DNA from: Candidatus Rokuibacteriota bacterium
GTDB lineage: Bacteria; Methylomirabilota; Methylomirabilia; Rokubacteriales; CSP1-6
DNA length: 64,000 bases
Assembly (NCBI GenBank): GCA_016188005.1
Contig: JACPIQ010000025.1
Span: 1-64,000 of the forward strand
Direction of reading: 5' to 3'
Shown here one piece after another: positions 20,201 through 61,779 of the stretch. Numbering within the stretch: position 1 is the stretch's first letter; each line of letters opens with the position of its first letter. The notes below the pieces were generated by a model. That model saw only the letters and a program-made list of their open reading frames with translations. It had not been told where the DNA came from and did no database searches. The position numbers were made by a program, and so were the translations under genes.

Positions 20201-20281
20201 GCGGGCATTATAGCGGTGGGCGGCGAGCACTGGCTCCGGTTTCCCTGGCGCCCCTGCCGGGCCCGCTGGCGATGGGGCCGG

Positions 20282-24402: not shown

Positions 24403-24404
24403 GG

Positions 24405-25999: not shown

Positions 26000-26718
26000 G
26001 CCAGGGCCGCCTCCAGCTCCTCGCCGGCGCCGCCGTAGATCAGGCCGAGGGCGGCGCGGTCCAGGGCCGCGGGGGGGCCCTCGAAGACCACGCGGCCCGC
26101 GCTGAGCCCGATGATCCGCTGGGCGAAGCGGCGGGCCAGGCGCACGTCGTGGATGTTGATCAGGGCCGGGATGCGCTCCTCGACGGCGAGCTCGGTGATG
26201 AGCGCCATCACCGCCTCGGAGGTCTTCGGATCGAGGCTCGAGGTGGGTTCGTCCACGAGGAGGATCTTCGGGCGCTGCACCAGGGCGCGCGCGATGCCCA
26301 CCCGCTGGCGCTGCCCCCCGGAGAGCGCATCCGCCCGCTTGTTCTCCATCCCCTCGAGCCCCACGCGCCGGAGCGTGGCAAAGGCCATCGCCACGTCCGC
26401 GGGCGGGAAGCGACGGCGCCACGCCTTCCAGAGCCCCACGTAGCCCAGCCGGCCCGACAGCACGTTCTCCATCACGGTGAGGCGCTCCACGAGATTGAAC
26501 TCCTGGAAGATCATCCCCATCTGGCGGCGGGCGCGGCGCAGCTCGGCAGGGGGGAGCGTCCTCAGCTCGAGCCCGTCCAGCCGGACGGAGCCCGCGTCGG
26601 GCTCGACGAGCCGATTGATGCAGCGGATCACCTCGTCGTCGGCCACGGTGAGGGAGACCCCCCGCAGGGCGAGGTCACCCGTGGGGTAGCGCTTCGCGAG
26701 CGCCGAGACCTCGAGCAC
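25996..26718 (-). CDS. phnC: Phosphonate ABC transporter ATP-binding protein PhnC homologue lacking the Walker-A/P-loop segment (probably non-functional).
   Basis: [31 protein letters not shown]|[18 protein letters not shown]...[20 protein letters not shown]...[15 protein letters not shown]...[12 protein letters not shown]. The sequence is contiguous in the DNA, with about 14 aa missing at the '|' (near 26625) where GEfVAlIGPSGAGKSTLL is expected. All other ABC motifs are present. Confidence 0.6.
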
Positions 26719-26734
26719 CGCCGGGCTTTCGCGC

Positions 26735-27760
26735 CTACTCGCCGCCCTTGCGGGCCGGCCTGGAGAACTTCTGGTACTCGGGGGAGTCGCGGGTGAACCG
26801 GGCGCCGTTGGCCTCGAGGATGCCCACGACGGCCCCCCAGTCCTTCCGGTAGTCGATGGGCACGAAGCCCACCGAGTCCCTGAACTCCTTGCCCAGGCTC
26901 GACCCCTGGATCTTGAAGGTGTAGAAGGCCTCCTTGATCTTCTCCGCGAGCCGGGGCTCGAGCGCGTGGTAGTAGGCGAAACCCGCCGTGGGGAACACGG
27001 GCGAGGTGTAGACGACCTTGTAGTCGGTGGCCTTGACCACACCGCGGTTGACCATGCGCTCGAGCACGGAGTCGGCCACCGCCGCGGCGTCGTAGTCGCC
27101 ATTGACCACGCCGAGCACGGAGTTGTCGTGCTTGCCCGAGAACGCGATCTGGTAGTCCTTGCCCGGCACCACGCCGAGCTTCGAGAAGAAATACACCGGC
27201 GCCTGATGCCCCGAGTTGGAGGTCTGCGAGACGTGGGCCACGCGCTTCCCCTTGAGGTCGGCCACCGAGTTGATCCGGGCGTTCGCGGCCTGGACGATGA
27301 CGATCAGGTGATAGCCGCGCGCCCCCTTCGGCGTGGCCATCTGGGCGAAGGGCACGGCCCCCGAGAGGTTCACGCCGTAGGGCAGGCTCCCCGTGGAGTA
27401 CCCGGTGATGTGCAGCCGCCCCGAGCGCATGGCCTCCAGCTGGGCAGCGTAGTTCTGCGGTCCGAAGAACTGCGTCTTCTTCCCCGTCACCTTCTCGACG
27501 TGGCGGAGCAGGTCGGCGAACACCGAGCCGTACACGGCCGGGTCCTCCACCGGCACGTAGGCGAAGACCAGCGTGTCGGGGTTGAGGATCCTGGCGGGGT
27601 CCTTCGGGACATCGGGGATGCCGTCACCGTTCTCGTCGCAGTAGAGGACGTCGAGCGTGCCGCGCGCCTTGCAGGCCTCGGCGGCCCCGGCCGTCCCCGC
27701 GAGCACGAGGCCGGCGGCCACGAGGATGAGCAGCGGGGTCAGGACCCTGGGCGTTCGCAT
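26735..27760 (-). CDS. phnD: Phosphonate/phosphite ABC transporter substrate-binding protein (PhnD/PtxB family).
   Basis: A signal peptide ([26 protein letters not shown]) and the PhnD family block [17 protein letters not shown]. It is 341 aa. Confidence 0.75.
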
Positions 27761-28483: not shown

Positions 28484-29412
28484 CTACTTGCCGAGCCGGC
28501 GGCGCAGTCCCTCGCAGGGATCCGGCCGCACGGCCGGAGGCGTGAGCCAGACGATGTCGCCCGTTGCCTCCCGCACCACCTCGCCCGGATCGTCCCCCGG
28601 ACGCGCCTCGAGCAGCTCGACCACGAGCTGACGCGTCCCGGGCCGCAGCGCCTCGAGCTGGGCAGGCAGGCCGCCGGGCGCCTGATGGCCGCGCCCGGCG
28701 ATCACCACCACCTGCGGCGCCTGCCCGAGCGCCTCGGCGAGCCGCCGGGCCCCTCGGCGAGCCGCCGGGCCATGGCCACGTTGCGCGCATGCCAGCTCTC
28801 CACCATGGTGGGGATCGCCCGCTCGGGCAGCAGATCGCAGTGCCCCTCCTGGATGCTCCGGGCGATGGCCGCCTCCCGCCTGGGATCGGGAGGGAGCAGG
28901 GAGGCGAGACGCGCCCCGTCCGCCGACACCGCCAGCCCCTCCCGCGCGATCCGCCGCACGAGGGCGGGCTCCAGATCCGTCGCGAGGACGCGCAGCCTGT
29001 GCTGCCGCGCCACCTCGAAGAGCGGCCAGTACATGGCGAAGTCCGGCCAGCCCGCCCGGCTCCAGCCGAGCGCGGCATCGAGCTCGGCCGGCCCGCCGGA
29101 GGCGCCGAGCGCCTGATCCACGGTGCTCTGCCGCTCCGCGGGCAGCATCTCGAAGGCCACGACCGGGCGGGCGCCCTCTGCCAGCAGGGCCTCGAGCACC
29201 CGGCGCTGCTGGGCGTGATGGTGGGGGTTGTCGTGCACCTCGCCGAGGTAGAGCACCTCGACGCCGCGGGCGCTCTGCGCGACCAGGCCCGCCTGGCGCC
29301 CGGAGTCGCCAGACAGGGCGAGCACGAGGGAGGCCGGGCCGATGCCGGCGGGGGCGGCGCAGGCGGAGAGCAACAGGGCCGTCGCGGCCAGGAGTCGTAT
29401 TTCGATTATCAT
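28484..29412 (-). pseudogene. ChaN-like (Tiki/TraB/GumN superfamily, PF04187-like) lipoprotein gene disrupted by a ~20-bp tandem duplication.
   Basis: The N-terminal frame reads MIIEIRLLAATALLLSAC (lipobox)...VLYLGEVHDNPHHHAQQRR...ARNVAMARRLAE and then frameshifts. The duplicated CCTCGGCGAGCCGCCGGGC sits at 28731..28770. Removing one copy restores the frame into ...ALGQAPQVVVIAGRGHQAPGGLPAQLEAL...CEGLRRRLGK, which is track ORF 28484..28711 -. Confidence 0.65.
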
Positions 29413-29421
29413 GGCCCCATT

Positions 29422-31302
29422 ATGAGCCTTCCCGGGTGGTGGCGGGAACGCCGGGCGCGTGTCCTGCAGCTCTGGGGGGTGGGCATGGCCGCCAGCTTGC
29501 TCGTCACCGCGGCCTCCTCCCTGGGCTATCTCGAAGCCCTCCAGGCCCGGAGCGCCGACATCCTGATACACCTCCAGGGGCAGCGATTCGCCCCCGAGGT
29601 GGTGGTGGTCGCCATCGACGAGGAGGCCTTCGAGTCGCTCGGCCGACGCCAGCCCCTGCCCCGTGACTACCTCGCCAGGCTGCTGCGCGGGCTCCAGCGC
29701 GCCGGCGCCGCGGTGGTGGGAGTCGATATGGCGTTCAGCACCCCCACCACCGAGGCCGACGACGGGGCGCTGGCCCGGGCGATCACGGACTTCTCCGATG
29801 GGGGCGTGAGCCGCGTGGTCCTGGTGGAGGCGCCGCCTCCCAGGACCGGGCCCCTGGCCGACCCCGCCTTTCTGGGCTCGGTGCTCCGCGGAGCGGCCGA
29901 CGTCCCCCTGGACCGGGACGGGGTGATCCGTCGCGTCGCTCTCCTCTTGCCGCGGGGCTCGGAGCCGCCGCTGCCCGCCCTCTCGCTGGCCGTCGTGGCG
30001 CGCCTGGCGGGGCTGACCCGGGGCATGCTCGAGATCTCCCTCCGGGAGCGCGGCGGCATCTCGCCGCCCGCCTGGCGCGTCGGCGGAGGCTGGAGCCTCG
30101 TCGGGACGCCAGCGCTGGCGCTCCGGTCCAACGAGCTGTGGCGCATCAATTACGTGGGGCCCGCGGGCTCCTTCCTCGCGATCCCGAGCGGCGCCGTGGT
30201 GGCGCTGGCGGAGGACACGGCCGAGCTGGCCGCCGACAACCCGCTGCGCGGGCGGATCGTGCTGGTCGGGGGCACCTACGGCGAGAGCCGGGACTTCTAC
30301 CCGACGCCCCACGGCAGCATCGCCGGCGTCGAGGTGCACGCCAACGTGATCCACATGCTCGTGACCGGCTCCCACATCCGGCCCTCCGGCTGGGTCAGGA
30401 GCCTCGCCTTCCAGATCGCCATCGTCATGCTGGCCGGCGTCGTGATGGCCATCCTCCGTCCGCTGGCTGGCACCCTCGTCTGCCTCACGGCGGCCGTGCT
30501 GCTGGGGGTGCCCGCCTCGTACCTCGCCTTCCAGCGCAGCGGCTACTGGGTGGACTTCCTCCTGCCCGTCATCGTCACCTCGCTCCTCGGCCTCGTGGCG
30601 GAGGGGTTGGCCCGCCGGCGCTTCCGCGACTCCTTCGGTCGCTACGTGAGCCGGGAGATCGCCGCACAGGTGCTGGCCGAGGCCCCGAGCCTCCGCGGCG
30701 AGCGCCGCGCGGTTTCCATCCTCTTCTCCGACCTGCGCGGCTTCACCACGCTGTCCGAGACCATGCCCGCCGAGCAGGTGGCCGCGCGCCTCACCGAGTA
30801 CTTCGAGGCGATGACCGCCGCGATCTTCGCCCACCGCGGCATGATCAACGACTTCGTGGGCGACGGGATCGTCGCCATCTTCGGGGCGCCGCTGGCAGAC
30901 GCCGAGCACGCCTGGCACGCCGTGCTGAGCGCGGAGGCCATGCAGCGGGCACTGGACGGGCTCAACCGGCGCTGGAGCGCCGCGGGGCTCCCGACGCTCC
31001 GCATGGGCATCGGCGTCCACACCGGGCAGGTCTTCGTCGGCAACGTCGGGGGCGCCGCGCGGGTCAAGTACACGGTGGTCGGCGATCCCGTGAACCTGGC
31101 CTCCCGCGTGGAGGGCTTGAACAAGGAGCTCGGAACGACGATCCTGATCACCGAGGAGACGCGAGCGCTGGCCGGGGAGCGGGTGGAGGCCAAGGACCGG
31201 GGCCTCATGGCCGTCAAGGGCCGGAGCCAGCCGGTGCATGTCCACGAGCTGTTGGCGGTGCATGCCGAGCGCTGCCCGCCGCCGGGGGGAGGCGCGACAT
31301 GA
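29422..31302 (+). CDS. CHASE2 extracytoplasmic sensor domain fused to a class III adenylate/guanylate cyclase.
   Basis: From the ATG at 29422: MSLPGWWRERRARVLQLWGVGMAASLLVTAASSLGYLEALQARSADILIHL... It has a CHASE2-type periplasmic region, then TM helices, then CHD blocks (AVSILFSDLRGFTTLSE...FVGDGIVAIFGAP...GIGVHTGQVFVGNVG...YTVVGDPVNLASRVE). Confidence 0.8.
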   Translation: MSLPGWWRERRARVLQLWGVGMAASLLVTAASSLGYLEALQARSADILIHLQGQRFAPEVVVVAIDEEAFESLGRRQPLPRDYLARLLRGLQRAGAAVVGVDMAFSTPTTEADDGALARAITDFSDGGVSRVVLVEAPPPRTGPLADPAFLGSVLRGAADVPLDRDGVIRRVALLLPRGSEPPLPALSLAVVARLAGLTRGMLEISLRERGGISPPAWRVGGGWSLVGTPALALRSNELWRINYVGPAGSFLAIPSGAVVALAEDTAELAADNPLRGRIVLVGGTYGESRDFYPTPHGSIAGVEVHANVIHMLVTGSHIRPSGWVRSLAFQIAIVMLAGVVMAILRPLAGTLVCLTAAVLLGVPASYLAFQRSGYWVDFLLPVIVTSLLGLVAEGLARRRFRDSFGRYVSREIAAQVLAEAPSLRGERRAVSILFSDLRGFTTLSETMPAEQVAARLTEYFEAMTAAIFAHRGMINDFVGDGIVAIFGAPLADAEHAWHAVLSAEAMQRALDGLNRRWSAAGLPTLRMGIGVHTGQVFVGNVGGAARVKYTVVGDPVNLASRVEGLNKELGTTILITEETRALAGERVEAKDRGLMAVKGRSQPVHVHELLAVHAERCPPPGGGAT

Positions 31303-32276
31303 GGATGCGACTCGGGCACCCGACAACACTGGCGATCGGGCTCCTGGTCGGCCTGTCCGTACCCGCCGCCGTCCGGGCGGCGGAGCCCGTGGCGGTCCTC
31401 ACCGAGATCCGGCCGGGCCAGGGCGAGGTGCGGGTCAAGCTCGCCGGAGAGGCGCAGTGGAAGGCTCCCCAACCGCTCCTCTCGCTCCGCCCGGGAGATC
31501 AGGTCCGCGCATCGGCCGACGCCCGCGCGGTCCTCGTGTTCACAGGAGGCCGCGCACCCGAGTCGGTGACCGCCGCCAACTCGCCGTTCGCCGTGGCCGC
31601 TCCCAGCGGAGCGGCGGGCGGCCAGCGGGTCCAGGCCCTCGTCGACAGCGTCACCCAGTTCCTGGTGGGCAAGCAGGACAAGCCGGCCTACGTCTCCCTC
31701 TACGTCCCGCTCTCGACCCGCAGCGTGCGGCTGCCCCCGCCGACCCTCCTCGCCCCACGAGAGACGCGACTGCTGTTCGGCCCCGTCACCTTCGAGTGGT
31801 CCGGCTCGGACCGCCTCCGCTACATGATCCGCCTCTTCGGGCCCGACGGGCTCGTGTGGGAGGAAGGGGGCCTGGTGCGCCAGCCCGTCCTGTACCCGGC
31901 CACAGCCCCCGCGCTGCGCCCCGGCCTGCGCTACGCCTGGGAGCTACACACGGAGCGCCAGCCCGTCCAGCGCGCCGAGTTCGAGATCCTCCCGCCGGCC
32001 GACGCCCGGCGCGTCCAGCAGGCGCTCGCGCTCCTCGTGCCGTCGGCCCTGCCGGGCCAGTCGGGCTCGACCCTCGCGCTCCTCCGCGCGGGCTTCCTCT
32101 CCCAGGAAGGACTCTACCAGGAGGCCCGCAAGGAGCTGCTCGCCGCCATCGCAGCGGACGCCACGGAGCCCTCACTGCATCAGCTGCTCGGCCACGTCTA
32201 CGATCGGATGGGGATGAAGGATCTCGCCACCGATGCCTTCGACGAGGCGCGTTTCCTCGCGACGCCACGGCCCTGA
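31299..32276 (+). CDS. Secreted FecR-domain protein with a C-terminal helical (TPR-like) region.
   Basis: Its ATG overlaps the cyclase stop (ATGA). It has a signal peptide (MRMRLGHPTTLAIGLLVGLSVPAAVRAAEP) and a FecR-like block (LTEIRPGQGEVRVKLAGEAQWKAPQPLLSLRPGDQVRASADARAVLVFTGG). Confidence 0.6.
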   Translation: MRMRLGHPTTLAIGLLVGLSVPAAVRAAEPVAVLTEIRPGQGEVRVKLAGEAQWKAPQPLLSLRPGDQVRASADARAVLVFTGGRAPESVTAANSPFAVAAPSGAAGGQRVQALVDSVTQFLVGKQDKPAYVSLYVPLSTRSVRLPPPTLLAPRETRLLFGPVTFEWSGSDRLRYMIRLFGPDGLVWEEGGLVRQPVLYPATAPALRPGLRYAWELHTERQPVQRAEFEILPPADARRVQQALALLVPSALPGQSGSTLALLRAGFLSQEGLYQEARKELLAAIAADATEPSLHQLLGHVYDRMGMKDLATDAFDEARFLATPRP

Positions 32277-32302: not shown

Positions 32303-32749
32303 TCAGCCGGGGCCCCTGCCCCCCCCGGATACCGGGAGGACCAGCGAGATCCGGTTGCGCTCGCCGTCGCGGACATAGCACAGCTCGCTCGCCAGGCTCT
32401 GGACGAGCCGCAGGCCGAGCCCGCCGACCGGCCGCTCCTCCGCCCCGCCCACCGGCTCCGCCGGACATGCCGCCGTGCGGGGGTCGTGGGGCGGGGCCGT
32501 GTCCTCGTAGGTGAGCGCGATCCGCCCCGGGGTGATCGCGAACCCGAGACGCACCGGCGCCTCGCTGTCCCCCCCATGGCCATGCGTCACCGTGTTGGCG
32601 AAGAGCTCCTCCACCAGCAGGGTGAGCCGGAGGGTGTCCTCGCGGCCGAGACCGGCGGCGCCGCAGATCTCGGCGACGAAGGCGACGGCCGCGGGCAGGG
32701 CATCCATGCGGGCGGGGAAGATTCCGGCCTGGTCGGGAGAGGTCGTCAC
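32303..32749 (-). CDS. Anti-sigma regulatory factor / serine protein kinase (RsbW/SpoIIAB-like, HATPase_c_2).
   Basis: 148 aa. It has the blocks LLVEELFANTVTHGHGG and GGLGLRLVQSLASEL, typical of partner-switching kinases. Confidence 0.7.
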   Translation of the reverse strand: MTTSPDQAGIFPARMDALPAAVAFVAEICGAAGLGREDTLRLTLLVEELFANTVTHGHGGDSEAPVRLGFAITPGRIALTYEDTAPPHDPRTAACPAEPVGGAEERPVGGLGLRLVQSLASELCYVRDGERNRISLVLPVSGGGRGPG

Positions 32750-32811
32750 AGGGTTGCTCGCCGGCTTATTATAGAGGCTGCATCCGGTCGCACCGAGGAA
32801 AGGAGTGCCCC

Positions 32812-33258
32812 ATGACGCGCTGGCCGATCCCCTTCGCGCTGCTCCTCCTCCTGGCCGCCACGCCCGCGCGGGCCGCCGACGTCGGACAGATCAAGGTCTC
32901 GCAGGGCGCCGTCCTCATCGAGCGGGCGGGCCAGAGACTGCCGGCCCCGGTCGGCGCGGGGGTCCAGGAGTCCGACGTGGTCGTGACGGGCGCCGACGGC
33001 TCCGTCGGCATCACCTTCGCGGACGCGAGCCTCCTCTCGGCCGGGCCCCACAGCGTGCTGGCCATCCAGCGCTTCGCCTTCGACCCCACCACGCACGACG
33101 GCGTGTTCGAGACACGCCTCCAGAAGGGAACGCTGGCTGCCGTGTCCGGCAAGATCGCGAAACGATCTCCGGACGCGATGCGGGTCAGGACCCCCGCCGC
33201 CCTGCTGGGCGTGCGCGGCACCGAGCTCGTCGTCCGCGTCACCGAGACCGCGCAGTGA
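32812..33258 (+). CDS. Secreted FecR-domain protein.
   Basis: A signal peptide (MTRWPIPFALLLLLAATPARA) and a FecR-like pattern (VKVSQGAVLIERAGQRLPAPVGAGVQESDVVVTGADGSVGITFADASLLSAGPHSVLAI...LGVRGTELVVRV). Confidence 0.65.
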   Translation: MTRWPIPFALLLLLAATPARAADVGQIKVSQGAVLIERAGQRLPAPVGAGVQESDVVVTGADGSVGITFADASLLSAGPHSVLAIQRFAFDPTTHDGVFETRLQKGTLAAVSGKIAKRSPDAMRVRTPAALLGVRGTELVVRVTETAQ

Positions 33259-33274
33259 GTGTGCCGGCGCCGCG

Positions 33275-33889
33275 GTGAGGCGCAAAGCGGGCGAGACGGC
33301 TCTCGGCCTGCTCGTCCTCTCCTTCGCCCTCTGGGCCGGCTGCGCCCGGGCCACCCGCGACGACCTCTACGTCCTGCTCCCCTCGCAGGACGGAACGCAC
33401 GCGGCCGTGGCGGTGACCCATGGCGCCCAGCAGCAGGTGCTCGAGCAGCCGTTTGACGCCGCGCGGATCCGGGTCGAGGGCCAGCTCGAGAAGGGGCGCG
33501 CCACGGAGCAGGAGATCCGCGAGGTCTTCGGAGCCGCCCTCGCCGCCCAGCCCGCCCGCCCGGTCTCGTTCACGCTCTACTTCCTCCACGGCAAGGACGA
33601 CCTCACGCCCGAATCCGAGCAGGTGGTCGGCCAGATCTTCTCCGAGATCGCCCGCCGGCCATCGCCGGAGGTGGTGGTGATCGGCCACGCCGACGCGGTG
33701 GGAAGCCACGAGTACAATGACAGGCTCTCGCTCCAGCGTGCCGGGCGGATGCGCGACGATCTGGTGAAGTGGGGCATCCCGGTCGAGCGCATCCGCGTGG
33801 AGGGGCGCGGCAAGCGCGAGCGGCGTGTGCCCACCGCGGAGGGCGTCCCCGAGCCCCTCAATCGGCGCGTCGAGATCAGCGTCCGCTGA
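33275..33889 (+). CDS. OmpA-family lipoprotein (C-terminal OmpA/MotB peptidoglycan-binding domain).
   Basis: A GTG start 16 nt after the FecR gene stop. It has a lipobox (LWAGCA) and an OmpA C-domain (VVVIGHADAVGSHEYNDRLSLQRAGRMRDDLVKWGIPVERIRVEGRG). Confidence 0.75.
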   Translation: MRRKAGETALGLLVLSFALWAGCARATRDDLYVLLPSQDGTHAAVAVTHGAQQQVLEQPFDAARIRVEGQLEKGRATEQEIREVFGAALAAQPARPVSFTLYFLHGKDDLTPESEQVVGQIFSEIARRPSPEVVVIGHADAVGSHEYNDRLSLQRAGRMRDDLVKWGIPVERIRVEGRGKRERRVPTAEGVPEPLNRRVEISVR

Positions 33890-35951
33890 CCGCGGCGCCT
33901 GGCCCGGCGGCGGCCGGCGCGCCCGGGGCCCCTCCCGGGCCATTCCAGCGCAGGACCATGATGGTGACATCGTCGGCCGGCTCCACTCCCTCGGTGAAGC
34001 CCGCCACGTCGGTGCGGATCGCGTGGCCCACGGTCTCCGGGCCTGCGCCCGTGCCGAGGCCGGCGAGCAGCGCCTCGAGCCGTTTGCGCCCGTAGAGCTC
34101 GCCCGACTTGCCCCGTGCCTCGGTGACGCCGTCGGTGACGAGGCAGAGCGTCTCGCCCGGCTCCATCTGGCGGGTCGCCGCCAGATAGGGAAATTCCTCC
34201 AGGACGCACAGGGGGGGGCCGCCGCCGCCCGAGAGCCTCTCGAGTCCGCGCTCGCCGTGGGGCAGGAGCCAGGGATCGTCGTGGCCGGCATTGCAGTACT
34301 CGAGCACGCCCATCCTCGCATCCAGGATGCCCGCGAAGAGGGTGACGAACAGCAGCTCCGTGTTGTCGCGTGAGATCTCGACATTCGCCTCGCGCATCAT
34401 GGCCGCGACCTGCCCACGGCGGCGGAGCGCGGTGCTCTTGTAGAGCGACTTGCTGACCGCCATGAAGAGGCTCCCGGGCAGGCCCTTGCCCGAGACGTCC
34501 CCGACGAGGAAGACGAGCCGGTCCTCGTCGAGGCGAAAGAAATCGTAGAGGTCCCCGCCCACTTCCTGCGCGGGCTCGAGAAAGGTGTACAGGCTGAAGC
34601 GCCGTTCCCCGGGGAACGCGCTGGCCGGACTCGGCAGGCTGCCCATCTGGATGCGACGGGCCGCCTCGAGCTCGCCCGCAACGCGGGCAGCCGCCTCGCG
34701 CTGCCGCTCCACCTGGCGGCGCAGGCTGGAGCGCTGACTGTCGGCCTCGGCCAGGGTGAGCCCGAGCATCGCGGTGAAGAGCCCCGCGAGGCCCATCGCC
34801 GGCGCCACCGCGTCCACGAGGATGCCCGCGCCCACGAAGAGCGCGATGCCCACGCCGAGGACCGCCGCAACCGCTCCCAGCCCCACCAGCACCGAGCGCC
34901 CCACGGGAAGCCCTGGCACCAGCAAGACGAGTCCGAGCCCACCGGCCAGGAGCAGGCCCGACTCGAGCCAGCGCGTCCAGGCCGGGCGCGACAGCAGGGT
35001 GCCGTCGACCAGCCCTTCCAGGAGCTGCGCGTGGATCTCCACGCCGGACATCCGGTCGCCCAGCGGCGTCGCCTGATAGTCCGAGAGTCCGAGCGCCGTG
35101 ACGCCGACGAGGACGAGCTTGCCGCGGAGCCGCGCCGGCTCGATCGCGCCGGCCAGCAGGTCGACGGCGGAGACGAATCGCGCCGGATCATGCGGCGAGA
35201 AGTGAAGCCACGCGCTGCCGTCGGGCTCGCTGCGCGCCGTCACGTCGCCGATGCCCACCGCCTCCAGCCCGCCCCTCCCCACTCGAAGGGTCAGCGCCGG
35301 CGTCCGGGTCGCCACCCGGAGCATCTCGACGCCGAGACCCGGCACGGGGGTTCGCCCCACCGCAGCCAGCAGCGGCAGCCGCCGGACCACGCCCGCTTCC
35401 GTATCCGCCGAGAGGAGACCATGCGCCCGGGCCGCGGCGTGGATCTCGTCGACGCTGCGGATGACTGACCCGTAGCGTCGAAGAAAAGGGATGGGATCGC
35501 CCCCGACCAGCCGCAGCGTCGGCTCGCGGAGCGCCGGGCGGGCGGCCGGAGACTCCGCGGTGTCGAGCCCGCCCACGCCCAGCACCGCCGGCAGGGCCCG
35601 GAGGGTCTCAGCCAGCGTCCCGTCGTTGGTGGGCATGCGCGCGAGGCGCTCCACCACCTCGCGCTCCATCCCCTGCACGAGGTCCGGGAGCCGGTCGGGC
35701 GAGAGCCGGTCCGGCTCCGGCATCAAGATGTCCAGCCCGATGGCGGCCGGGTCCGCCTCGCCGATCCTGGAGAGCAGCCGCGCGAGGAGTGTCCGCGGCC
35801 AGGGCCACTGGCCGTGACGGTCGAGACTCGCCTCATCCACGGCCACGATCAGCACGGGGGCGGTCGCGCGCTGACGCGGCGCCAGCATCTGGTAGGCATC
35901 GAAGCCGGCGAGGCGCAGCCAGCGAAGCCCGGACGGCCCGAGCGCGAGCAC
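33876..35951 (-). CDS. CHASE2 sensor domain fused to a PP2C/SpoIIE-type serine phosphatase (RsbU-like). The N-terminus is probably longer than annotated.
   Basis: A CHASE2 region (PVLIVAVDEASLDRHGQWPWPR...), C-terminal TM helices and a PP2C domain (FVGDVSGKGLPGSLFMAVSKSLY...GILDARMGVLEYCNAGHDDPWLL...VTDGVTEA). The open frame continues upstream of the first canonical start (35951). It encodes ...RPWLRALRGRRGRPAGLALLAVLLAGVLALGPSG (a TM helix) with no ATG/GTG/TTG up to the MBL gene stop. Confidence 0.7.
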   Translation of the reverse strand: MLALGPSGLRWLRLAGFDAYQMLAPRQRATAPVLIVAVDEASLDRHGQWPWPRTLLARLLSRIGEADPAAIGLDILMPEPDRLSPDRLPDLVQGMEREVVERLARMPTNDGTLAETLRALPAVLGVGGLDTAESPAARPALREPTLRLVGGDPIPFLRRYGSVIRSVDEIHAAARAHGLLSADTEAGVVRRLPLLAAVGRTPVPGLGVEMLRVATRTPALTLRVGRGGLEAVGIGDVTARSEPDGSAWLHFSPHDPARFVSAVDLLAGAIEPARLRGKLVLVGVTALGLSDYQATPLGDRMSGVEIHAQLLEGLVDGTLLSRPAWTRWLESGLLLAGGLGLVLLVPGLPVGRSVLVGLGAVAAVLGVGIALFVGAGILVDAVAPAMGLAGLFTAMLGLTLAEADSQRSSLRRQVERQREAAARVAGELEAARRIQMGSLPSPASAFPGERRFSLYTFLEPAQEVGGDLYDFFRLDEDRLVFLVGDVSGKGLPGSLFMAVSKSLYKSTALRRRGQVAAMMREANVEISRDNTELLFVTLFAGILDARMGVLEYCNAGHDDPWLLPHGERGLERLSGGGGPPLCVLEEFPYLAATRQMEPGETLCLVTDGVTEARGKSGELYGRKRLEALLAGLGTGAGPETVGHAIRTDVAGFTEGVEPADDVTIMVLRWNGPGGAPGAPAAAGPGAAVSGR

Positions 35952-36058
35952 CCCGGCGAGCAGGACGGCCAGCAGGGCCAGCCCGGCGGGCCGGCCGCGC
36001 CGGCCACGCAGGGCGCGCAGCCACGGCCGGTCGGCCCAGTGCCGATGGTCCGACCCGG

Positions 36059-37018
36059 TCAGACGGCGATCTCCATCCCGTCGTAGGCGGCCGAGATCTC
36101 GAGCCGCCGGCCGCTCCGCGTGAGCTCCTCGAGCCGGCGGGTCTCGCGCAGGATCCCGGCGATCTTCGCGTCGTCGTGGAGGGGCTCGTGATGGTACAGG
36201 CAGAGGTGCTTGACGGCCGCCAACTGGCAGAGCTCCACGCCCACGATATTGCTCGAGTGCCCCCAGTCCTCCTTGACCGAGATGGCATCGGCCAGCGAGT
36301 ACATGGCGTCGAAGATCACCAGGTCGGCGTCGCGAAAGAACTCGACGAAGGCCGCGGTCTCGCCGGGATCGTCACGCTTGTGTTCGGAGTCCGTCGAGTA
36401 CACCACCGCCTTGCCCTCTCTCTCGAAGCGATACCCGTAGGAGTCGCCCGAGTGCACCTGCCTGTGGGGCCGCACTTTCAGCCCCGCCATCGCGTAGTCG
36501 CGGCCGGCCTCCAGGCGGACGAACTCGATGGTGGCGCTGAGCTGCGAGAACTCCACCGGGAACGAGGGCGCCCCGTGCTGCCGGCGGAAGGCCTCCTCCA
36601 GGGCCGCGTGGCAGCCGTAGATGCGAATCCGGTTCCCGGGGAGATAGGCGGGGACGAAGAACGGAAAACCCATGATGTGGTCCCAGTGCGGGTGCGACAT
36701 GAAGACGTGGTACGTCTGGCCCCGGGCCGGGCCGTGCCGGGCGAGCGCGTGGTGGCCAAAGACCTGGGCCCCGGACCCGAGGTCACAGAGCACGTACTCG
36801 CCGCTCCCCGTCTCGATCTCCACGCACGAGGAGTTCCCGCCGAAGCTGTGCGCGGTCGCGAACTCCAGCTCGCGCTCCACGAAGGCTCGTGCCTTCGCCG
36901 GTGTGTCGAGCCCGCGTCCCGCTCCACGTACCAGCGCCGTCACGATCTTCTCCGTGACGGCGGCGGCAGACAGCGATACCGGGATGGAGCCGCGCGTGCC
37001 CCAGAAGCGGACGAGCAT
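36059..37018 (-). CDS. MBL-fold metallo-hydrolase.
   Basis: MLVRFWGTRGSIPVS... with the HxHxDH motif (SHPHWDHIMGFPFF). It is 319 aa. Its start ATG shares one nt with the STAS gene stop, and its stop abuts the upstream-extended CHASE2-PP2C frame. Confidence 0.7.
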   Translation of the reverse strand: MLVRFWGTRGSIPVSLSAAAVTEKIVTALVRGAGRGLDTPAKARAFVERELEFATAHSFGGNSSCVEIETGSGEYVLCDLGSGAQVFGHHALARHGPARGQTYHVFMSHPHWDHIMGFPFFVPAYLPGNRIRIYGCHAALEEAFRRQHGAPSFPVEFSQLSATIEFVRLEAGRDYAMAGLKVRPHRQVHSGDSYGYRFEREGKAVVYSTDSEHKRDDPGETAAFVEFFRDADLVIFDAMYSLADAISVKEDWGHSSNIVGVELCQLAAVKHLCLYHHEPLHDDAKIAGILRETRRLEELTRSGRRLEISAAYDGMEIAV

Positions 37019-37404
37019 CAGCCCACGCCGGTCTGCGAGAAGGCCGCGAGCGCCGCCGGCGAGACGGCGGCCAGCGCGTCGCGCGTGGTCGGGTACACGT
37101 CCAGGACCAGGTGGAAGCGGCTGATCTCGAAGATCTCGCGCACGATCGGCCCCAGCGCCGCGACGACCATCGTGCCCCCCTGCGCCTTGACCTGCTTGGC
37201 GGCCAGCATGAGCACGCGGAGACCCGCGCTGCTGATGTACTCCACGCCGGAGAGATCGAGGACCACACGGTCCCGCTCCGCCCCGCACCGGTCGAGGTGC
37301 GGCGCCAGCGCGGCCTTGAAATCGGGCGACACGGTGTGGTCGATGCGGCCGGCGGGACAGAGGATCACGGCGTCAGCGCAGCGGCGCGGTGCCAGCTCCA
37401 TGGT
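37018..37404 (-). CDS. STAS-domain anti-sigma-factor antagonist (SpoIIAA/RsbV-like).
   Basis: ...RDRVVLDLSGVEYISSAGLRVLMLAAKQVKAQGGTMVVAAL... with the conserved phosphorylatable Ser context (DLSGVEYISSAGL). The start is the ATG at 37404 (MELAPRR...). Confidence 0.7.
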   Translation of the reverse strand, partial: TMELAPRRCADAVILCPAGRIDHTVSPDFKAALAPHLDRCGAERDRVVLDLSGVEYISSAGLRVLMLAAKQVKAQGGTMVVAALGPIVREIFEISRFHLVLDVYPTTRDALAAVSPAALAAFSQTGVG

Positions 37405-37557
37405 CGGCTCGAATCTTACCACGCGAGGTCCTCCGGCGGGGGAGCCGGCGGGCATCCTGCGGCGGGACGAGATCAGATCAGCGTGCGACGTGTGCCCTGG
37501 GCCCGCGCCCGTGGAGTCACTCGGCGACGGGTCCGCGCGCGGCGGCGGGTCGTGGGC

Positions 37558-39558
37558 TCAGCGACGGCGGAGGCGCCGCCGCGCCGCCTCGAGCGCGTGA
37601 CGGAACCGGGAATCATCGGGGCGCAGCCGCAGCGCCTCCGCGTAGGCGGCAGCGGCCTCGTCGAGCCGCCTGAGCCGGACGAGCACCGCACCCAGGCGGG
37701 CGTGGGCCTCGGCGTGATCGGGCTTGACGCGGATCGCCTCGCGATAGGCCACCTCGCACTCGGCGTGCTTGCCTTGCCGCTCGAGCACCGTCCACAGGTT
37801 GAAATGATTCTGCGCCTCGGCCGGGCGCAGGCGGAGCGCCTCGCGATAGGCGGCCTCGGCCTCGGCATGGAGCCCCTGGGCCAGGAGCACGCCGCCGAGA
37901 CCGCGGTACGCCGACGGGCTGTCGGGCTTGGCGGCGATGGCGGCGCGGAAGGCCTCCGCCGCTTCCGCGGGCCGCCCCTGCTCGCTCAGGAGCTCGCCAA
38001 GATAGCTGTGGGTGCGCGCGAAGCCGGGCTTGAGGTGGGCCGCCTCGCGCAGCGCCGCCTCCGCCGCCGCGTACTTGCCCTGGAAGTACAGGACCACGCC
38101 GAGCCCCCGATGCAGCGCGGCGCCCCCGGGCTTGACGCGCAGGGCCTCGCGGTACACCGCCTCGGACTGCGCGTAGCGCCCCTGGCGGCCGAGGCCGACG
38201 GCGAGATTGCCGAGGGCGACCACATTCGTCGGGGCGAGCCGGACGGCCTCGCGCAGCGCCGCCTCCGCCTCGGCATGCTTGCCCTGCCGCCCGAGCGCGA
38301 TGCCCAGCTCCACGTGGTGATCGGCATCGCCCGGCGCCAGGGCCACCGCGGCGCGGAAGGCCGCTTCCGCCTCGGCGTCGAGCCCCTGGGCCGACAGCGC
38401 GAGCCCCAGATCGTAATGCAGCTCCGGATCGTCAGGACACAGGCGCAGCGCCCGGCGGTAGGTGTCGGCCTCCTCGGCCCAGCGGCTCTCCCGCCGGAGC
38501 ACCGCGGCCAGTCCCAGGTGGGTCGCGAGGTCCTCGGGGTGCAGACGGATCGCCTCCCGGAACGCCAGCGCGGCGGCGGCGAAATGCCCCTGGTGCTCGA
38601 GGACGCGGCCCAGGCGACCGTGCCACGCCGCGTTGCCAGGCTCGAGCCGGATCGCTTCCCGCAAGGCGGCCGCGGCCTCGCCGTGACGGCGCAGACGCCA
38701 GAGGACGACGCCCAGGCGGCCGTGGAGCGCGGCGACCGAGCCGCGGAGGCGGATGGCCTCGCGATAGGCGGCGGCGGCCGCACGCCAACGGCGCTGACGG
38801 CGCAGCACGCCGGCCAGGTGCGCGCGCGCCCTGGCAGAGGTGGGCGCGAGCCTGACGGCCTCGGCGAGCGCCACCGCCGCCTCGGCGTGCTTTCCCTGGG
38901 CGGCCAGGACCATCCCGAGCCCGTCGTGGACGTGGGGGTTCCGCGGCGCGAGCCTCGCCGCTTCCCTGAAGGCCGTCTCGGCCTCGAGGCGCAGGCCGCG
39001 GCGCGCAAGCGCGATGCCGAGGTTCTGTTGCGCCTCGGCGTGGCCAGGCGCCAGCCGCACGGCGTCGCGCAGCGCCTGCTCCTCGTCGGCGTACCTGCCC
39101 TGCCGCCGGCACATGAGGCCCAGCCGGAGAGGCACGAGAGGATGATCGGGCCTGAGCACCGCGGCCGCATGGTACGCCGCCTCGGCCTCGGCCCAGCGCC
39201 GCTGCCGCTCCAGCGCCAGCCCGAGCTTGAAGTGCCCCCTGAAGGCCTGCGGCGCCTGCGCCACCGCCTCGCGGTACTCGGCTTCCGCCTCGACCGGGCG
39301 CCCCTGCTCCAGGAGCGCATCGCCCAGGTCCACGCGCGCCGCGGCGGCCCGCGGCGAGAGGCGCACGGCCTCCCGGAAGGCGGCTTCCGCCTCTCGCGTG
39401 CGCCGCTGGCGGGTGAGGGCGGCGCCGAGCCGGGAATAGGCTTCCGCGCGCCGGGGGTCGCCCTCGATCGCGTGACGGCACTGGCGCTCGGCCTCGGCGT
39501 CGCGCCCCTCGCGAAGCGATGCCGCCGCGCGCTGCAGCCAGAGGGTGGTCTCGTCCAC
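37558..39558 (-). CDS. Tetratricopeptide-repeat protein (~19 consecutive 34-aa TPR units).
   Basis: 666 aa made of AEAxxREAxRLxP... units repeated throughout. There is no other domain. Confidence 0.8.
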   Translation of the reverse strand: MDETTLWLQRAAASLREGRDAEAERQCRHAIEGDPRRAEAYSRLGAALTRQRRTREAEAAFREAVRLSPRAAAARVDLGDALLEQGRPVEAEAEYREAVAQAPQAFRGHFKLGLALERQRRWAEAEAAYHAAAVLRPDHPLVPLRLGLMCRRQGRYADEEQALRDAVRLAPGHAEAQQNLGIALARRGLRLEAETAFREAARLAPRNPHVHDGLGMVLAAQGKHAEAAVALAEAVRLAPTSARARAHLAGVLRRQRRWRAAAAAYREAIRLRGSVAALHGRLGVVLWRLRRHGEAAAALREAIRLEPGNAAWHGRLGRVLEHQGHFAAAALAFREAIRLHPEDLATHLGLAAVLRRESRWAEEADTYRRALRLCPDDPELHYDLGLALSAQGLDAEAEAAFRAAVALAPGDADHHVELGIALGRQGKHAEAEAALREAVRLAPTNVVALGNLAVGLGRQGRYAQSEAVYREALRVKPGGAALHRGLGVVLYFQGKYAAAEAALREAAHLKPGFARTHSYLGELLSEQGRPAEAAEAFRAAIAAKPDSPSAYRGLGGVLLAQGLHAEAEAAYREALRLRPAEAQNHFNLWTVLERQGKHAECEVAYREAIRVKPDHAEAHARLGAVLVRLRRLDEAAAAYAEALRLRPDDSRFRHALEAARRRLRRR

Positions 39559-41616: not shown

Positions 41617-42570
41617 CTACTCGCCCTTGAGTGTCGGATCGAGGAGGTCCCGGAGCCAGTCGCCGGTGCGGCTCACGACGATGGAGGTCGCCATGAGGAC
41701 GAGCCCCGGGCACGTCGAGATCCACCACGCCGAGTCCAGGTACTCCCGCCCCTCGTGGACCATGCCGCCCCAGGACGGGGTCGGCGGCTGGATGCCGAGG
41801 CCGAGGAAGGACAGGGTCGCCTCCAGCACGATGGCGCGCGCCAGCTCGAGAGTGGCGATCACCACCAGCGAGGAGAGCACGTTGGGCAGCACGTGCCGGA
41901 GCACGATGCGCGGAACCGAGCCCCCGAGGGCGTGGACCGCGTCCACGAACTCCCGCGAGCGAAGCGACAGCACCTGGGAGCGCAGGACGCGCGCGTAGGA
42001 GACCCACCCGGACAGCCCGATCACCACCACGAGCGTCGGGAACGACGGCCCCAGCACCGCGATGATCCCGATGGCGAGCAGGATGAAGGGGAAGGCGAGC
42101 TGGGCATCGGCGAGCGACAGCGCTTGCTTAACCAACGGGTTGTTGAGCGGGGGGACCTTGCTGTTCACGCCGATGCAGTACAGGCCGGCGTAGAGCGCTC
42201 CGACCACGCGGGGCGACGGATTGACGTTGACCCGCTCCCCGTGATCGGGCGGGAGCTGGGTGATGATATCCACCTCGCCCTTGAGCAGGCTCGCGATCCG
42301 CGGCGCCATCTCGGGGATGGCACGCACGACGAGGGTCGCCGCGTCGGGCGTCTCGATCCTGTCGATGGTGGTGAACACCGTGGAGACGCGGGCCTTGACC
42401 TTCGGGTCCAGCGTGCGCTGGAGACTCCACTTGGCGTCTGCCGACGAGAAGGGGTCCCCGTTGTGCCACTTCACCCCCTGGCGGATCTTGAAGACCCAGG
42501 TGGTCTGGCCCTGGATCTTCCACTCCGTGGCCAGGGCCGCGTGCAGCTTGCCGTCCGGGTGCCGGCTCAC
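41617..42570 (-). pseudogene. Gene remnant: an internal fragment of a family-5 peptide SBP fused in-frame to the C-terminal half of a DppC/OppC-type ABC permease.
   Basis: N-part ...HPDGKLHAALATEWKIQGQTTWVFKIRQGVKWHNGDPFSSADAKWSLQRT... (SBP_bac_5 core with no signal peptide; a stop lies 30 codons upstream). C-part ...FPFILLAIGIIAVLGPSFPTLVVVIGLSGWVSYARVLRSQVLSLRSREFVDAVHALG...LVVIATLELARAIVLEATLSFLGLGIQPP (BPD_transp_1 EAA-loop region). Confidence 0.6.
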
Positions 42571-44335: not shown

Positions 44336-44559
44336 GTCAGCGGCGTCTCCCGGCGGCCGCGGATCAGGTCGAGGGCAGGAGCGTGCAGCCGGCCGTTGGT
44401 CGCCAGCCCCGTGCCCGAGTAGATGGTGGGCGTCCCCGTCAGGTCGGTGAAGCGCCCGCCCGCCTCCTCGACGAGGATCTTGAGCGCCGCCAGGTCCCAG
44501 GGCTTCTGCCTGATCGGCGCCCACAGCGTCACGGGGCGGGTGGCGGAGGTGCTGACCAT
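44332..44559 (-). pseudogene. C-terminal fragment of an inositol-monophosphatase-family gene.
   Basis: 75-aa ORF ...KPWDLAALKILVEEAGGRFTDLTGTP...LATNGRLH is the IMPase C-terminal signature (WDxAAG...EAGG). The N-terminal ~190 aa of the family are absent. Confidence 0.5.
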
Positions 44560-61736: not shown

Positions 61737-61779
61737 CGAGCTCAGGGGATCATACCCCGCTGCGCTATACTCCTCCACC

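What the first reader, a model, noticed from the sequence alone, without database searches (positions are those of the whole stretch)
32303..37404. Unusual partner-switching island: RsbW-like kinase, FecR+OmpA pair, CHASE2-PP2C phosphatase, embedded MBL-fold hydrolase, STAS antagonist, TPR protein
The classic RsbU/RsbV/RsbW trio is present but rearranged around an extracytoplasmic-sensing input:
- The PP2C phosphatase carries a CHASE2 sensor and TM helices.
- The STAS antagonist gene shares a nucleotide with the start of an MBL-fold hydrolase.
- That hydrolase in turn abuts the phosphatase gene.
- The anti-sigma-type kinase is encoded separately, convergent to a FecR gene.
- No sigma factor gene is in the window.

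An MBL hydrolase translationally coupled inside a partner-switching operon is not a standard component. I regard this as the most system-like unexplained assembly in the window.
Basis: partly seen in the sequence, partly recalled or inferred. Interest (0 to 1): 0.7.

Follow-up and report, generated by a model that had tools for sequence, protein, structure and literature searches.

The report
Conserved partner-switch cassette with MBL hydrolase
A six-gene signalling cassette is conserved in order and orientation in dozens of soil and freshwater bacterial species, and its RNase Z-like metallo-hydrolase appears to take the place normally held by a sigma factor, a kind of output not described for such systems.

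Summary
Window 32303-37455 encodes six proteins:
- an RsbW-like kinase;
- a secreted FecR-domain protein;
- an OmpA-like lipoprotein;
- a CHASE2/PP2C membrane phosphatase;
- an MBL-fold hydrolase;
- a STAS protein, whose stop codon overlaps the MBL start (TGATG).

No sigma factor gene lies anywhere in the 64 kb.

Two details were wrong. The kinase is divergent from, not convergent with, the FecR gene. The TPR gene is not a conserved member.

The gene order is not unique:
- Of 57 species-level genomes with enough flanking sequence, 47 carry all six genes in the same order and orientation. They include Methylomirabilota, Burkholderiales with cultured Duganella and Rugamonas, Gamma- and Alphaproteobacteria, and Acidobacteriota.
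- No seventh gene is conserved beside the cassette.
- The MBL protein is the best-conserved member, at a mean of 64% identity.
- Its family is fused to STAS in both orders, and also as MBL-STAS-Ser/Thr kinase(-AAA-TPR).
- It also occurs next to a dCache-PP2C or a PP2C-kinase fusion.

By sequence and fold the enzyme is an ELAC/RNase Z-like phosphodiesterase that reaches no curated family cut-off.

My best reading is an envelope-sensing partner switch whose phospho-STAS controls this hydrolase. That link is inferred, not shown, and the substrate is unknown. I found no description in the searchable literature. I rate it a new variant of a known kind.

The parts
32303..32749 (-). RsbW-like serine kinase (HATPase_c_2), 148 aa. 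Its own transcription unit, divergent from the FecR gene.
   Evidence: Pfam HATPase_c_2, E 4.5e-22, covering 1-126 of 127 profile positions. N-box EELF(A/T)N and G2 box GGLG are conserved in 56 homologues. Present next to the FecR gene in 49 of 57 loci.
32750..32811 (.). Divergent 62-bp spacer between the kinase and FecR genes. It holds the only AT-rich patch, a -10-like TATTAT, and a GGAG ribosome-binding site before the FecR ATG.
   Evidence: Sequence. Promoter-like sites at 32743-32772: 2 found against 0.1 expected. This is a consensus match only.
32812..33258 (+). Secreted FecR-domain protein, 148 aa, with signal peptide ...ATPARA/AD.
   Evidence: Pfam FecR, 2e-9. Sub-threshold similarity to Leptospira LipL45 and Lsa33. 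Second-best conserved member, mean 59% identity. Present in 56 of 57 loci.
33275..33889 (+). OmpA-like peptidoglycan-binding protein, 204 aa, probable lipoprotein (…LWAGC).
   Evidence: Pfam OmpA, 8e-17. Hits to YiaD, YfiB and Pal-type lipoprotein models, all below cut-off. Present in 55 of 57 loci. Its stop overlaps the PP2C stop by 14 nt.
33876..36062 (-). CHASE2 sensor / 3-4 transmembrane helices / PP2C (SpoIIE-type) phosphatase. 691 aa from GTG 35951; probably 728 aa from CTG 36062, which overlaps the MBL stop.
   Evidence: Pfam CHASE2 1.5e-50 and SpoIIE 4.6e-41. Hydrophobic segments at 23-49 and 365-437 of the extended protein. The N-terminal motif HWxxRxWLRALRGxRGRPxG plus the first transmembrane helix, conserved in homologues, are encoded upstream of GTG 35951. 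PP2C metal-binding motifs GDVSGKG, TDGVTEA and DDVT are conserved.
36059..37018 (-). MBL-fold hydrolase, 319 aa, ELAC/RNase Z-like phosphodiesterase. HPHWDH motif at 36677-36694. Proposed regulated output.
37018..37455 (-). STAS anti-sigma-antagonist-type protein, 127-145 aa depending on the start (ATG 37401, GTG 37422 or ATG 37455). Predicted phospho-acceptor Ser is encoded at 37231-37233, in the motif YISSAGLR.
   Evidence: Pfam STAS 2e-18. TIGR00377 ant_ant_sig 75 bits, above its cut-off of 53. The SS dipeptide is kept in 74 of 80 homologues. TGATG overlap with the MBL start. The junction overlaps in 27 of 81 loci and is mostly 16 nt or less.

Best explanation
**What it is.** The region is one copy of a self-contained, horizontally spread six-gene signalling cassette. 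It has three transcription units: STAS>MBL>CHASE2-PP2C, FecR>OmpA-like, and the kinase alone.

**Proposed mechanism.**
1. A periplasmic or envelope cue is read by the CHASE2 domain, together with the secreted FecR-domain protein and the peptidoglycan-anchored OmpA-like lipoprotein.
2. That cue sets the activity of the cytoplasmic PP2C domain.
3. The PP2C removes the phosphate that the RsbW-like kinase puts on the conserved serine of the STAS protein.
4. The phosphorylation state of STAS then controls the co-translated MBL-fold enzyme, an ELAC/RNase Z-like phosphodiesterase. The substrate would be RNA or a nucleotide. In this reading the enzyme takes the place that a sigma factor holds in classical systems.

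**Shown.** Domain content, intact catalytic and phospho-acceptor motifs, cassette conservation, absence of a linked sigma factor, and recurrent STAS-MBL gene fusion.

**Inferred.** Who phosphorylates whom (from knowledge of the RsbU/V/W family), the STAS-to-MBL regulatory link (from fusions and gene order), the co-sensor role of FecR and OmpA (from their linkage with CHASE2), and the substrate class (from fold and sequence neighbours).
For: **Cassette conservation**
- The same six genes, in the same order and orientation, appear in L007 and L009 with entirely different flanks.
- They appear in 47 of 57 GTDB species loci with enough flank. More than 588 species stretches matched in the scan.
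- No other gene family occurs in more than 7 of 81 loci.

**Link between MBL and STAS**
- Overlapping or nearly touching STAS stop and MBL start.
- Fusions: STAS-MBL (P0039, P0123 and others), MBL-STAS (P0130, P0189), and MBL-STAS-Pkinase(-AAA_16-TPR) in 34 of the top 150 clusters at 50% identity.
- One STAS-MBL fusion sits inside an otherwise normal cassette (L098).

**Exchangeable input and kinase modules around the same MBL**
- dCache-HAMP-PP2C (L125).
- PP2C-HATPase_c_2 fusion (L096).
- Kinase>STAS>MBL (L127).

**An active enzyme under strong constraint**
- Invariant HxHxDH, His and Asp ligands.
- Highest identity of the six proteins.

**Phosphodiesterase or nuclease fold**.

**No sigma factor in the window**.

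**Precedents from papers**
- A PP2C, a STAS-type kinase and a STAS protein regulating an enzyme (SiaABCD): PMC9239204, read.
- CHASE2 linked with FecR-domain proteins: PMC5192318 and PMC9239204.
Against: - There is no direct evidence that STAS binds or regulates the MBL.
- AlphaFold2 on the natural fusion P0039 gave pTM 0.63, so the packing of the two domains is not confidently predicted.
- A sigma factor or other kinase target could be encoded elsewhere in the genome.
- Eight betaproteobacterial loci lack an adjacent kinase.
- Stand-alone STAS-MBL fusions have no signalling neighbours at all.
- The substrate is open. The enzyme reaches no curated family cut-off, and its structural neighbours range from RNases to cAMP phosphodiesterase and PhnP.
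- The phosphatase lacks a canonical start codon that would include its first transmembrane helix.
Confidence: 0.55

Rival explanations
1. This is a classical partner switch whose target is encoded elsewhere. The RsbW-like kinase sequesters a sigma factor or other regulator from a distant locus, and dephosphorylated STAS releases it. The MBL hydrolase is an accessory member, for example one co-induced with the response, and is not the regulated output.
For: The STAS protein passes the ant_ant_sig model cut-off, and the kinase resembles RsbW and RsbA. The kinase is transcribed separately and is missing from 8 of 57 loci, so components can act in trans. Sigma factors encoded away from their switch are known from established knowledge of Chlamydia and Pseudomonas partner switches.
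Against: No sigma factor or transcription factor is linked in any of 81 loci. A mere passenger would not be the best-conserved gene. Nor would it be fused to STAS repeatedly and in both orders, including with unrelated Hanks-type kinases.
Confidence: 0.25
2. The MBL enzyme is a cyclic-nucleotide phosphodiesterase. The cassette would tune cAMP or cGMP levels, and in this genome it would act against the neighbouring CHASE2-adenylate/guanylate cyclase.
For: - Sub-threshold hits to the cyclic-nucleotide-degrading phosphodiesterase model NF041851 and faint hits to Anti-Pycsar Apyc1.
- A CHASE2-cyclase lies 1 kb away, and there are three class III cyclases in the window.
- In Campylobacterota, CHASE2-cyclases cluster with a phosphodiesterase, a FecR-domain protein and a TPR protein (PMC9239204).
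Against: - The cyclase is not conserved next to the cassette in other genomes.
- The score is 53 bits against a cut-off of 400.
- The closest sequence relatives in the PDB are RNase Z, ELAC and other RNA-processing nucleases.
- Distant MBL-only relatives sit beside helicase, exonuclease and primase genes.
Confidence: 0.2
3. The MBL enzyme acts upstream instead of as the output. It would make or destroy a small phosphodiester ligand that controls STAS, the kinase or the PP2C, as an input or feedback element.
For: Only the gene linkage and the fusions, which do not give a direction. Some STAS domains bind nucleotides (established knowledge, not tested here).
Against: The cassette already has an elaborate extracytoplasmic input. 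In the long fusion proteins the MBL sits at the N-terminus of kinase-AAA-TPR proteins, a position typical of effector domains (inference).
Confidence: 0.1
4. The genes are neighbours by chance and belong to unrelated housekeeping families.
For: None beyond the general frequency of MBL-fold genes.
Against: Cassette conservation across phyla with changing flanks, plus the gene fusions.
Confidence: 0.01

Closest known systems
RsbU/RsbV/RsbW and SpoIIE/SpoIIAA/SpoIIAB partner-switching systems
   Same: A STAS protein with a conserved serine, an HATPase_c_2 serine kinase, and a SpoIIE-type PP2C phosphatase whose N-terminal part is the input.
   Different: No sigma factor is linked, and none lies within the 64 kb. 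An MBL-fold hydrolase is an obligatory fourth cytoplasmic member and is often fused to STAS. The input is CHASE2 plus FecR plus an OmpA-like protein. The gene order is fixed in three transcription units.
SiaABCD of Pseudomonas aeruginosa (PP2C SiaA, kinase SiaB, STAS-like SiaC, diguanylate cyclase SiaD)
   Same: A partner switch whose phospho-protein controls an enzyme of nucleotide metabolism instead of a sigma factor (as summarised in PMC9239204). The PP2C domain here has a weak hit to the SiaA model.
   Different: The output here is an MBL-fold phosphodiesterase, not a GGDEF cyclase. The SiaA hit is far below cut-off (33.7 against 700 bits). The sensor domain and periplasmic partners differ. 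The regulation itself is not shown here.
CHASE2 sensors paired with FecR-domain periplasmic proteins: the Burkholderia 'BiofilmReg' operon (LysM-FecR protein plus CHASE2 histidine kinase; PA4035/36 in P. aeruginosa), and the Campylobacterota CHASE2-cyclase clusters
   Same: A CHASE2 transmembrane sensor encoded next to a secreted FecR-domain protein that is joined to, or accompanied by, a peptidoglycan-binding module. Sources: PMC5192318 and PMC9239204.
   Different: The transmitter here is a PP2C phosphatase, not a histidine kinase or cyclase. The peptidoglycan-binding part is a separate OmpA-like lipoprotein, not a fused LysM domain.
RNase Z / ELAC zinc phosphodiesterases and the small relatives BA1088 and YhfI
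   Same: The fold, the HxHxDH motif, the GHSS ('HST') loop and the other metal ligands. These are the best sequence and structure matches.
   Different: About 20-24% identity. RNase_Z model score is 60 bits against a cut-off of 293. There is a family-specific helical insertion at residues 12-62. I saw no counterpart of the tRNA-binding flexible arm, though I did not analyse this rigorously.
WalJ/YycJ, the MBL-fold protein in the walRKHIJ two-component operon of Bacillus
   Same: An MBL-fold hydrolase of the same broad group (COG1235; JGI labels this family PhnP-like) embedded in a signalling operon. This comparison comes from my own knowledge and was not tested here.
   Different: A different signalling system (two-component, not a partner switch). 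No STAS fusions are known. It was not recovered among the hits here.

Membership tests
Partner-switching system (RsbU/V/W type) | STAS anti-sigma-antagonist with a phosphorylatable Ser/Thr in the D-x-x-x-x-x-S-S-G-L motif | tested here: met
   TIGR00377 75 bits against a cut-off of 53. YISSAGLR motif, with SS kept in 74 of 80 homologues.
Partner-switching system (RsbU/V/W type) | HATPase_c_2 serine kinase / anti-factor | tested here: met
   Pfam PF13581, 78.8 bits against a cut-off of 27.4. N-box and G2 box conserved. The RsbW equivalog models are not reached.
Partner-switching system (RsbU/V/W type) | PP2C/SpoIIE phosphatase with a sensory N-terminal part | tested here: met
   PF07228, 141 bits, and CHASE2, 173 bits, in one protein.
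Partner-switching system (RsbU/V/W type) | A sigma factor sequestered by the kinase, usually encoded in the same locus | tested here: not met
   No sigma-factor domain in about 56 gene models of the window. No conserved seventh gene in 81 loci. A target encoded elsewhere cannot be excluded.
Partner-switching system (RsbU/V/W type) | Reversible phosphorylation of STAS by the kinase and the PP2C, and exchange of binding partners | not testable with these tools
   Needs biochemistry.
RNase Z (TIGR02651) | Score above the curated cut-off; tRNA 3'-processing architecture with a flexible arm | tested here: not met
Cyclic nucleotide-degrading phosphodiesterase (NF041851; Apyc1/YhfI type) | Score above the curated cut-off | tested here: not met
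   53.5 bits against a cut-off of 400. The Pfam Anti-Pycsar_Apyc1 hit is only faint or weak in precomputed tables and was absent in my own scan up to E = 5.
PhnP (TIGR03307) | Score above the curated cut-off; location in a phn operon | tested here: not met
   21.7 bits against a cut-off of 272. No C-P lyase genes are adjacent; a phosphonate-binding ABC system at 23620-27760 is unlinked.
Class II 3',5'-cyclic-nucleotide phosphodiesterase (PDEase_II) | Pfam PF02112 match; HxHLDH signature | tested here: not met
CHASE2 / FecR-domain sensory pair | CHASE2 transmembrane protein encoded next to a secreted FecR-domain protein | tested here: met
   Pfam. Adjacent in 56 of 57 loci. Literature precedents. 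Physical interaction was not tested.
Known anti-phage defence systems (PADLOC) | Match of any cassette protein to a defence-system model | tested here: not met
   Only a weak OmpA/MotB-type hit to ZorB, E 3e-4.

The most novel reading that the evidence does not exclude
In this widespread cassette, and in the related MBL-STAS-kinase fusion proteins, an RNase Z-like metallo-phosphodiesterase has replaced the sigma factor as the end-point of partner switching. Envelope signals read by CHASE2, FecR and the OmpA-like protein would be turned directly into regulated cleavage of RNA or of a nucleotide messenger, gated by STAS phosphorylation. That would be a post-transcriptional or second-messenger output class not yet described for these systems.
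Probability: 0.4. Interest if true: 0.8.

Novelty: new variant of a known kind. Interest (0 to 1): 0.68.

Why it matters
- Partner-switching systems are mostly understood as regulators of sigma factors, with a few enzyme-directed exceptions such as SiaABCD.
- This analysis defines a compact cassette found in hundreds of species-level genomes. In it an MBL-fold phosphodiesterase is the most conserved member and is repeatedly fused to STAS.
- That gives a concrete, testable candidate for a new output type.
- It also gives a function-by-association for a large family of unannotated 'MBL fold metallo-hydrolases': more than 6000 clusters at 50% identity.
- It offers a handle on two poorly understood periplasmic modules, CHASE2 and stand-alone FecR-domain proteins, whose signals are unknown.
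- Cultured hosts exist (Duganella vulcania FT82W, Rugamonas rivuli FT103W), so genetics and biochemistry are feasible.

Tried and rejected
1. **Chance adjacency or housekeeping genes.** Rejected on cassette conservation and gene fusions.
2. **TPR protein (37558-39558), SRPBCC genes and the CHASE2-cyclase as cassette members.** Rejected: none recurs in other loci.
3. **Anti-phage defence system.** No PADLOC match.
4. **Filing the MBL protein under RNase Z, PhnP, Apyc1/YhfI-type phosphodiesterase or class II phosphodiesterase.** All curated cut-offs are missed by a wide margin.
5. **AlphaFold2 of the natural STAS-MBL fusion P0039, to see whether STAS docks on the active site.** pTM 0.63 with a shallow paired alignment. 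The result is inconclusive, and the tool returns no contacts.
6. **Testing whether the 325-aa secreted protein after the cyclase is a second FecR protein.** BLASTP E 0.2-0.3 and no Pfam FecR hit; only weak TPR hits. Left open.
7. **Literature.** Seven full-text searches, on CHASE2 with FecR, on STAS or partner switching with MBL, Lactamase_B_2 or phosphodiesterase, and on CHASE2 with PP2C, RsbU or SpoIIE. They found no description of the cassette or of a STAS-MBL link. A review of STAS-only proteins mentions neither hydrolases nor fusions. Subscription journals are not covered.
8. **A first STAS profile built from sequences that ran into the MBL gene.** It gave false 'MBL-STAS' calls. I rebuilt it and used only the corrected counts.
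Full report
**Source and setting.** The window is 72% G+C. Its MBL protein is identical to a GenBank protein from a 'Candidatus Rokubacteria' (Methylomirabilota) metagenome-assembled genome (P0001).

| Coordinates | Strand | Domain(s) |
|---|---|---|
| 32303-32749 | - | HATPase_c_2 |
| 32812-33258 | + | FecR |
| 33275-33889 | + | OmpA |
| 33876-35951 | - | CHASE2 + SpoIIE (PP2C) |
| 36059-37018 | - | Lactamase_B_2 |
| 37018-37455 | - | STAS |

- The STAS stop and the MBL start overlap by one base (ggcTGATGctc).
- The FecR protein has a cleavable signal peptide. The OmpA-like protein has a lipoprotein-like N-terminus (read from the sequence).
- I made about 56 gene models with a GC3-based caller and scanned them all. 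None hits a sigma-factor domain.

**Corrections.**
- The kinase is head to head with the FecR gene. The 62-bp spacer holds the only promoter-like TATTAT of the region. The two genes are not convergent.
- From its first canonical start (GTG 35951), the phosphatase gene is 107 nt from the MBL stop. That start would cut off the first transmembrane helix. The N-terminal motif conserved in homologues (HWxxRxWLRALRGxRGRPxG, then the helix) is encoded in frame upstream, with no ATG, GTG or TTG available. A CTG at 36062 overlaps the MBL stop as CTGA. The three genes are probably translationally linked, through either a rare start codon or an assembly error.
- The OmpA and PP2C genes overlap tail to tail by 14 nt.

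**Is the gene order conserved?** Yes, strongly.
- Two homologues from unrelated metagenome contigs (73% and 71% identical MBL) sit in the same six-gene arrangement: STAS>MBL>CHASE2-PP2C> <OmpA <FecR kinase>. Their flanks are completely different.
The best 80 loci come from Methylomirabilota, many Burkholderiales (including cultured Duganella vulcania and Rugamonas rivuli), Gammaproteobacteria (Lysobacter, Rudaea, Nevskia), Alphaproteobacteria, Acidobacteriota and others.
- I searched these loci with the window's proteins. Of 57 loci with enough flank, 47 have all six genes in the same order and orientation. Eight betaproteobacterial loci lack only the adjacent kinase, and in L030 glgC follows the FecR gene. 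One locus lacks the OmpA gene, and one is a different arrangement.
- All-against-all clustering of the flanking ORFs found no further family in more than 7 of 81 loci. The cassette is therefore self-contained. It has no conserved sigma factor, transcription factor or cyclase, and the TPR gene next to it in this window is not part of it.
- Mean identity to the window across 52 full cassettes:

| Component | Mean identity (%) |
|---|---|
| MBL | 64 |
| FecR | 59 |
| PP2C | 54 |
| STAS | 52 |
| OmpA | 48 |
| CHASE2 | 45 |
| Kinase | 43 |

**The MBL-STAS link.**
- The STAS-MBL junction overlaps by 4 or 1 nt in 27 of 81 loci. In most of the others the gap is 16 nt or less.
- The MBL family is repeatedly fused to STAS. 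Among the close relatives there are 444-aa STAS-MBL proteins; P0039 is seen on 37 contigs.
- After correcting an initial profile artefact, the 150 best clusters at 50% identity contain 69 MBL-only, 7 STAS-MBL, 3 MBL-STAS and 34 MBL-STAS-X proteins. Pfam shows X to be a Hanks-type Ser/Thr kinase, often followed by AAA_16 and TPR.
- Fusion in both orders, and with a kinase class unrelated to RsbW, argues that MBL and STAS act as one functional unit that different kinases feed into.
- A second scan, started from distant relatives, showed the same core with other inputs:
  - kinase>STAS>MBL (L127);
  - periplasmic binding protein > dCache-HAMP-PP2C > MBL (L125);
  - MBL > PP2C-HATPase_c_2 fusion (L096);
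  - a STAS-MBL fusion inside an otherwise standard CHASE2 cassette (L098).
- The predicted phospho-acceptor (first Ser of YISSAGLR, codon 37231-37233) is kept in 74 of 80 cassette STAS proteins. This includes those from loci without an adjacent kinase. It is S or T in the STAS-MBL fusions and in many kinase fusions.

**What the MBL protein is.**
- All metal ligands (HPHWDH, further His and Asp) are invariant, so it is an enzyme and not a scaffold.
- It reaches no curated NCBIfam cut-off. The best sub-threshold hits are RNase Z (60 bits against 293), cyclic-nucleotide-degrading phosphodiesterase (53 against 400) and PhnP (22 against 272).
- A family profile finds, by sequence, BA1088, RNase Z, YhfI and ELAC1, then CPSF73, IntS11 and RNase J.
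- More distant MBL-only relatives (30-40% identity) lie beside nucleic-acid genes: YceG and DnaG (L145), an MrfA-like DEAD helicase with an RNase H-like domain (L090), and a 3'-5' exonuclease (L104).
- The chemistry is therefore almost certainly phosphodiester hydrolysis on RNA, DNA or a nucleotide. I cannot tell which. A family-specific helical insertion (residues 12-62) and a highly conserved but poorly modelled loop (241-254, YSLADAISVKEDWGH) are candidates for partner or substrate contacts. That is inference.

**The input side.**
- CHASE2 sits between an N-terminal helix and a block of three to four helices, followed by a linker and the PP2C domain.
- The FecR and OmpA-like genes travel with it in 55-56 of 57 loci.
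- Linkage of CHASE2 sensors with periplasmic FecR-domain proteins that carry or accompany a peptidoglycan-binding module is documented in two places. One is the Burkholderia LysM-FecR / CHASE2 histidine kinase operon (PMC5192318). The other is the CHASE2-cyclase clusters of Campylobacterota (PMC9239204).
- The same mBio paper notes that PP2C plus STAS-type kinase plus STAS sets can regulate enzymes, citing SiaABCD. This is the closest mechanistic precedent.

**Mechanism proposed.**
1. An envelope cue acts through FecR, the OmpA-like protein and CHASE2 to set PP2C activity.
2. PP2C and the RsbW-like kinase set the phosphorylation state of STAS.
3. STAS controls the MBL phosphodiesterase.

Steps 1 and 2 are inferred from what the families are known to do. 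Step 3 is inferred from fusion, translational coupling and the lack of any other conserved output. I put this at about 0.55.

The rivals are as follows:
- **A trans-encoded sigma factor or other target, with the MBL as an accessory (0.25).** This cannot be excluded without genome-wide or experimental data, but it explains the fusions and the MBL's top conservation poorly.
- **A cyclic-nucleotide phosphodiesterase sub-hypothesis (0.2; it overlaps the main model).** This is attractive here because a CHASE2-cyclase lies next door, but that neighbour is not conserved.
- **An upstream or feedback role for the enzyme (0.1).**
- **Chance adjacency.** Refuted.

**What did not help.** AlphaFold2 of the natural fusion gave pTM 0.63, so there is no confident packing of the two domains. 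PADLOC gave nothing. Seven literature searches found no description of the cassette or of a STAS-MBL connection. Papers in subscription journals are not covered, so prior description cannot be fully excluded.

**Verdict.** This is a real feature, far beyond chance, and not unique to this genome. It is a widespread, apparently undescribed variant of the partner-switching theme, with a CHASE2/FecR/OmpA input and an RNase Z-like MBL hydrolase as an integral member and the likely output. Novelty: new variant of a known kind. Interest: 0.68.

Noticed in passing
window 28702-32276: A second CHASE2 system lies directly beside the cassette. It comprises a ChaN/Cofac_haem_bdg lipoprotein (28702-29481, -), a CHASE2 + class III cyclase (about 29422-31302, +), and an overlapping 325-aa secreted protein with only weak TPR hits (31299-32276, +). 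It recalls the CHASE2-cyclase / FecR / TPR / phosphodiesterase clusters reported in Campylobacterota (PMC9239204). It is not conserved next to the cassette elsewhere.
   Followed up: partly
window 35951-36062: The CHASE2-PP2C gene has no canonical start codon that would include its conserved N-terminal motif and first transmembrane helix. The only candidate is CTG 36062, which overlaps the MBL stop (CTGA). This is either a rare start with re-initiation or an error in the assembly.
   Followed up: partly
window 33876-33889; loci L007-L089: The stop codons of the convergent OmpA and PP2C genes overlap in a 14-nt near-palindrome (TCAGCGTCCGCTGA). A 14-nt tail-to-tail overlap recurs in 21 of 66 loci and a 4-nt overlap in 7. 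Its significance is unknown.
   Followed up: partly
window 2456-6832 and 59400-61844: There are two further class III cyclases. One is REC + Guanylate_cyc (2456-3547), in an operon with a REC protein and a dCache-HAMP-GAF histidine kinase (3544-6832). The other is GAF + Guanylate_cyc (59400-61844). The genome region is rich in cyclic-nucleotide signalling.
   Followed up: no
window 19372-20230: A HepT-like RNase and a nucleotidyltransferase (MNT) form a toxin-antitoxin pair on the minus strand.
   Followed up: no
window 41617-42570 and 44423-44806: One ORF combines an N-terminal fragment of a solute-binding protein (SBP_bac_5) with an ABC permease domain (BPD_transp_1). A 127-aa ORF matches only the last 40 residues of TctA. 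These may be gene remnants, a deletion, or an assembly join.
   Followed up: no
L145 6074-10908, L090 7987-10950, L104 7999-8637 (also L144, L151, L156, L168): Distant MBL-only relatives of the family (30-40% identity) sit in a different conserved context: TPR - CxxCxxCC - MBL - YceG - DnaG primase. Others lie next to an MrfA-like DEAD helicase or a 3'-5' exonuclease. This hints at an ancestral role in nucleic-acid processing.
   Followed up: partly
P0152, P0162, P0175 and about 30 other clusters: Large proteins of 1200-1650 aa have the architecture MBL-STAS-Ser/Thr kinase-AAA_16-TPR. All come from unnamed metagenomic sources. I know of no characterised member.
   Followed up: partly
L001-L006 8001-9335: The 444-aa STAS-MBL fusion P0039 (76% identical to the window MBL) is encoded between an ABC transporter and metabolic genes. 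No kinase or phosphatase lies nearby, so it must be controlled in trans or act on its own.
   Followed up: no
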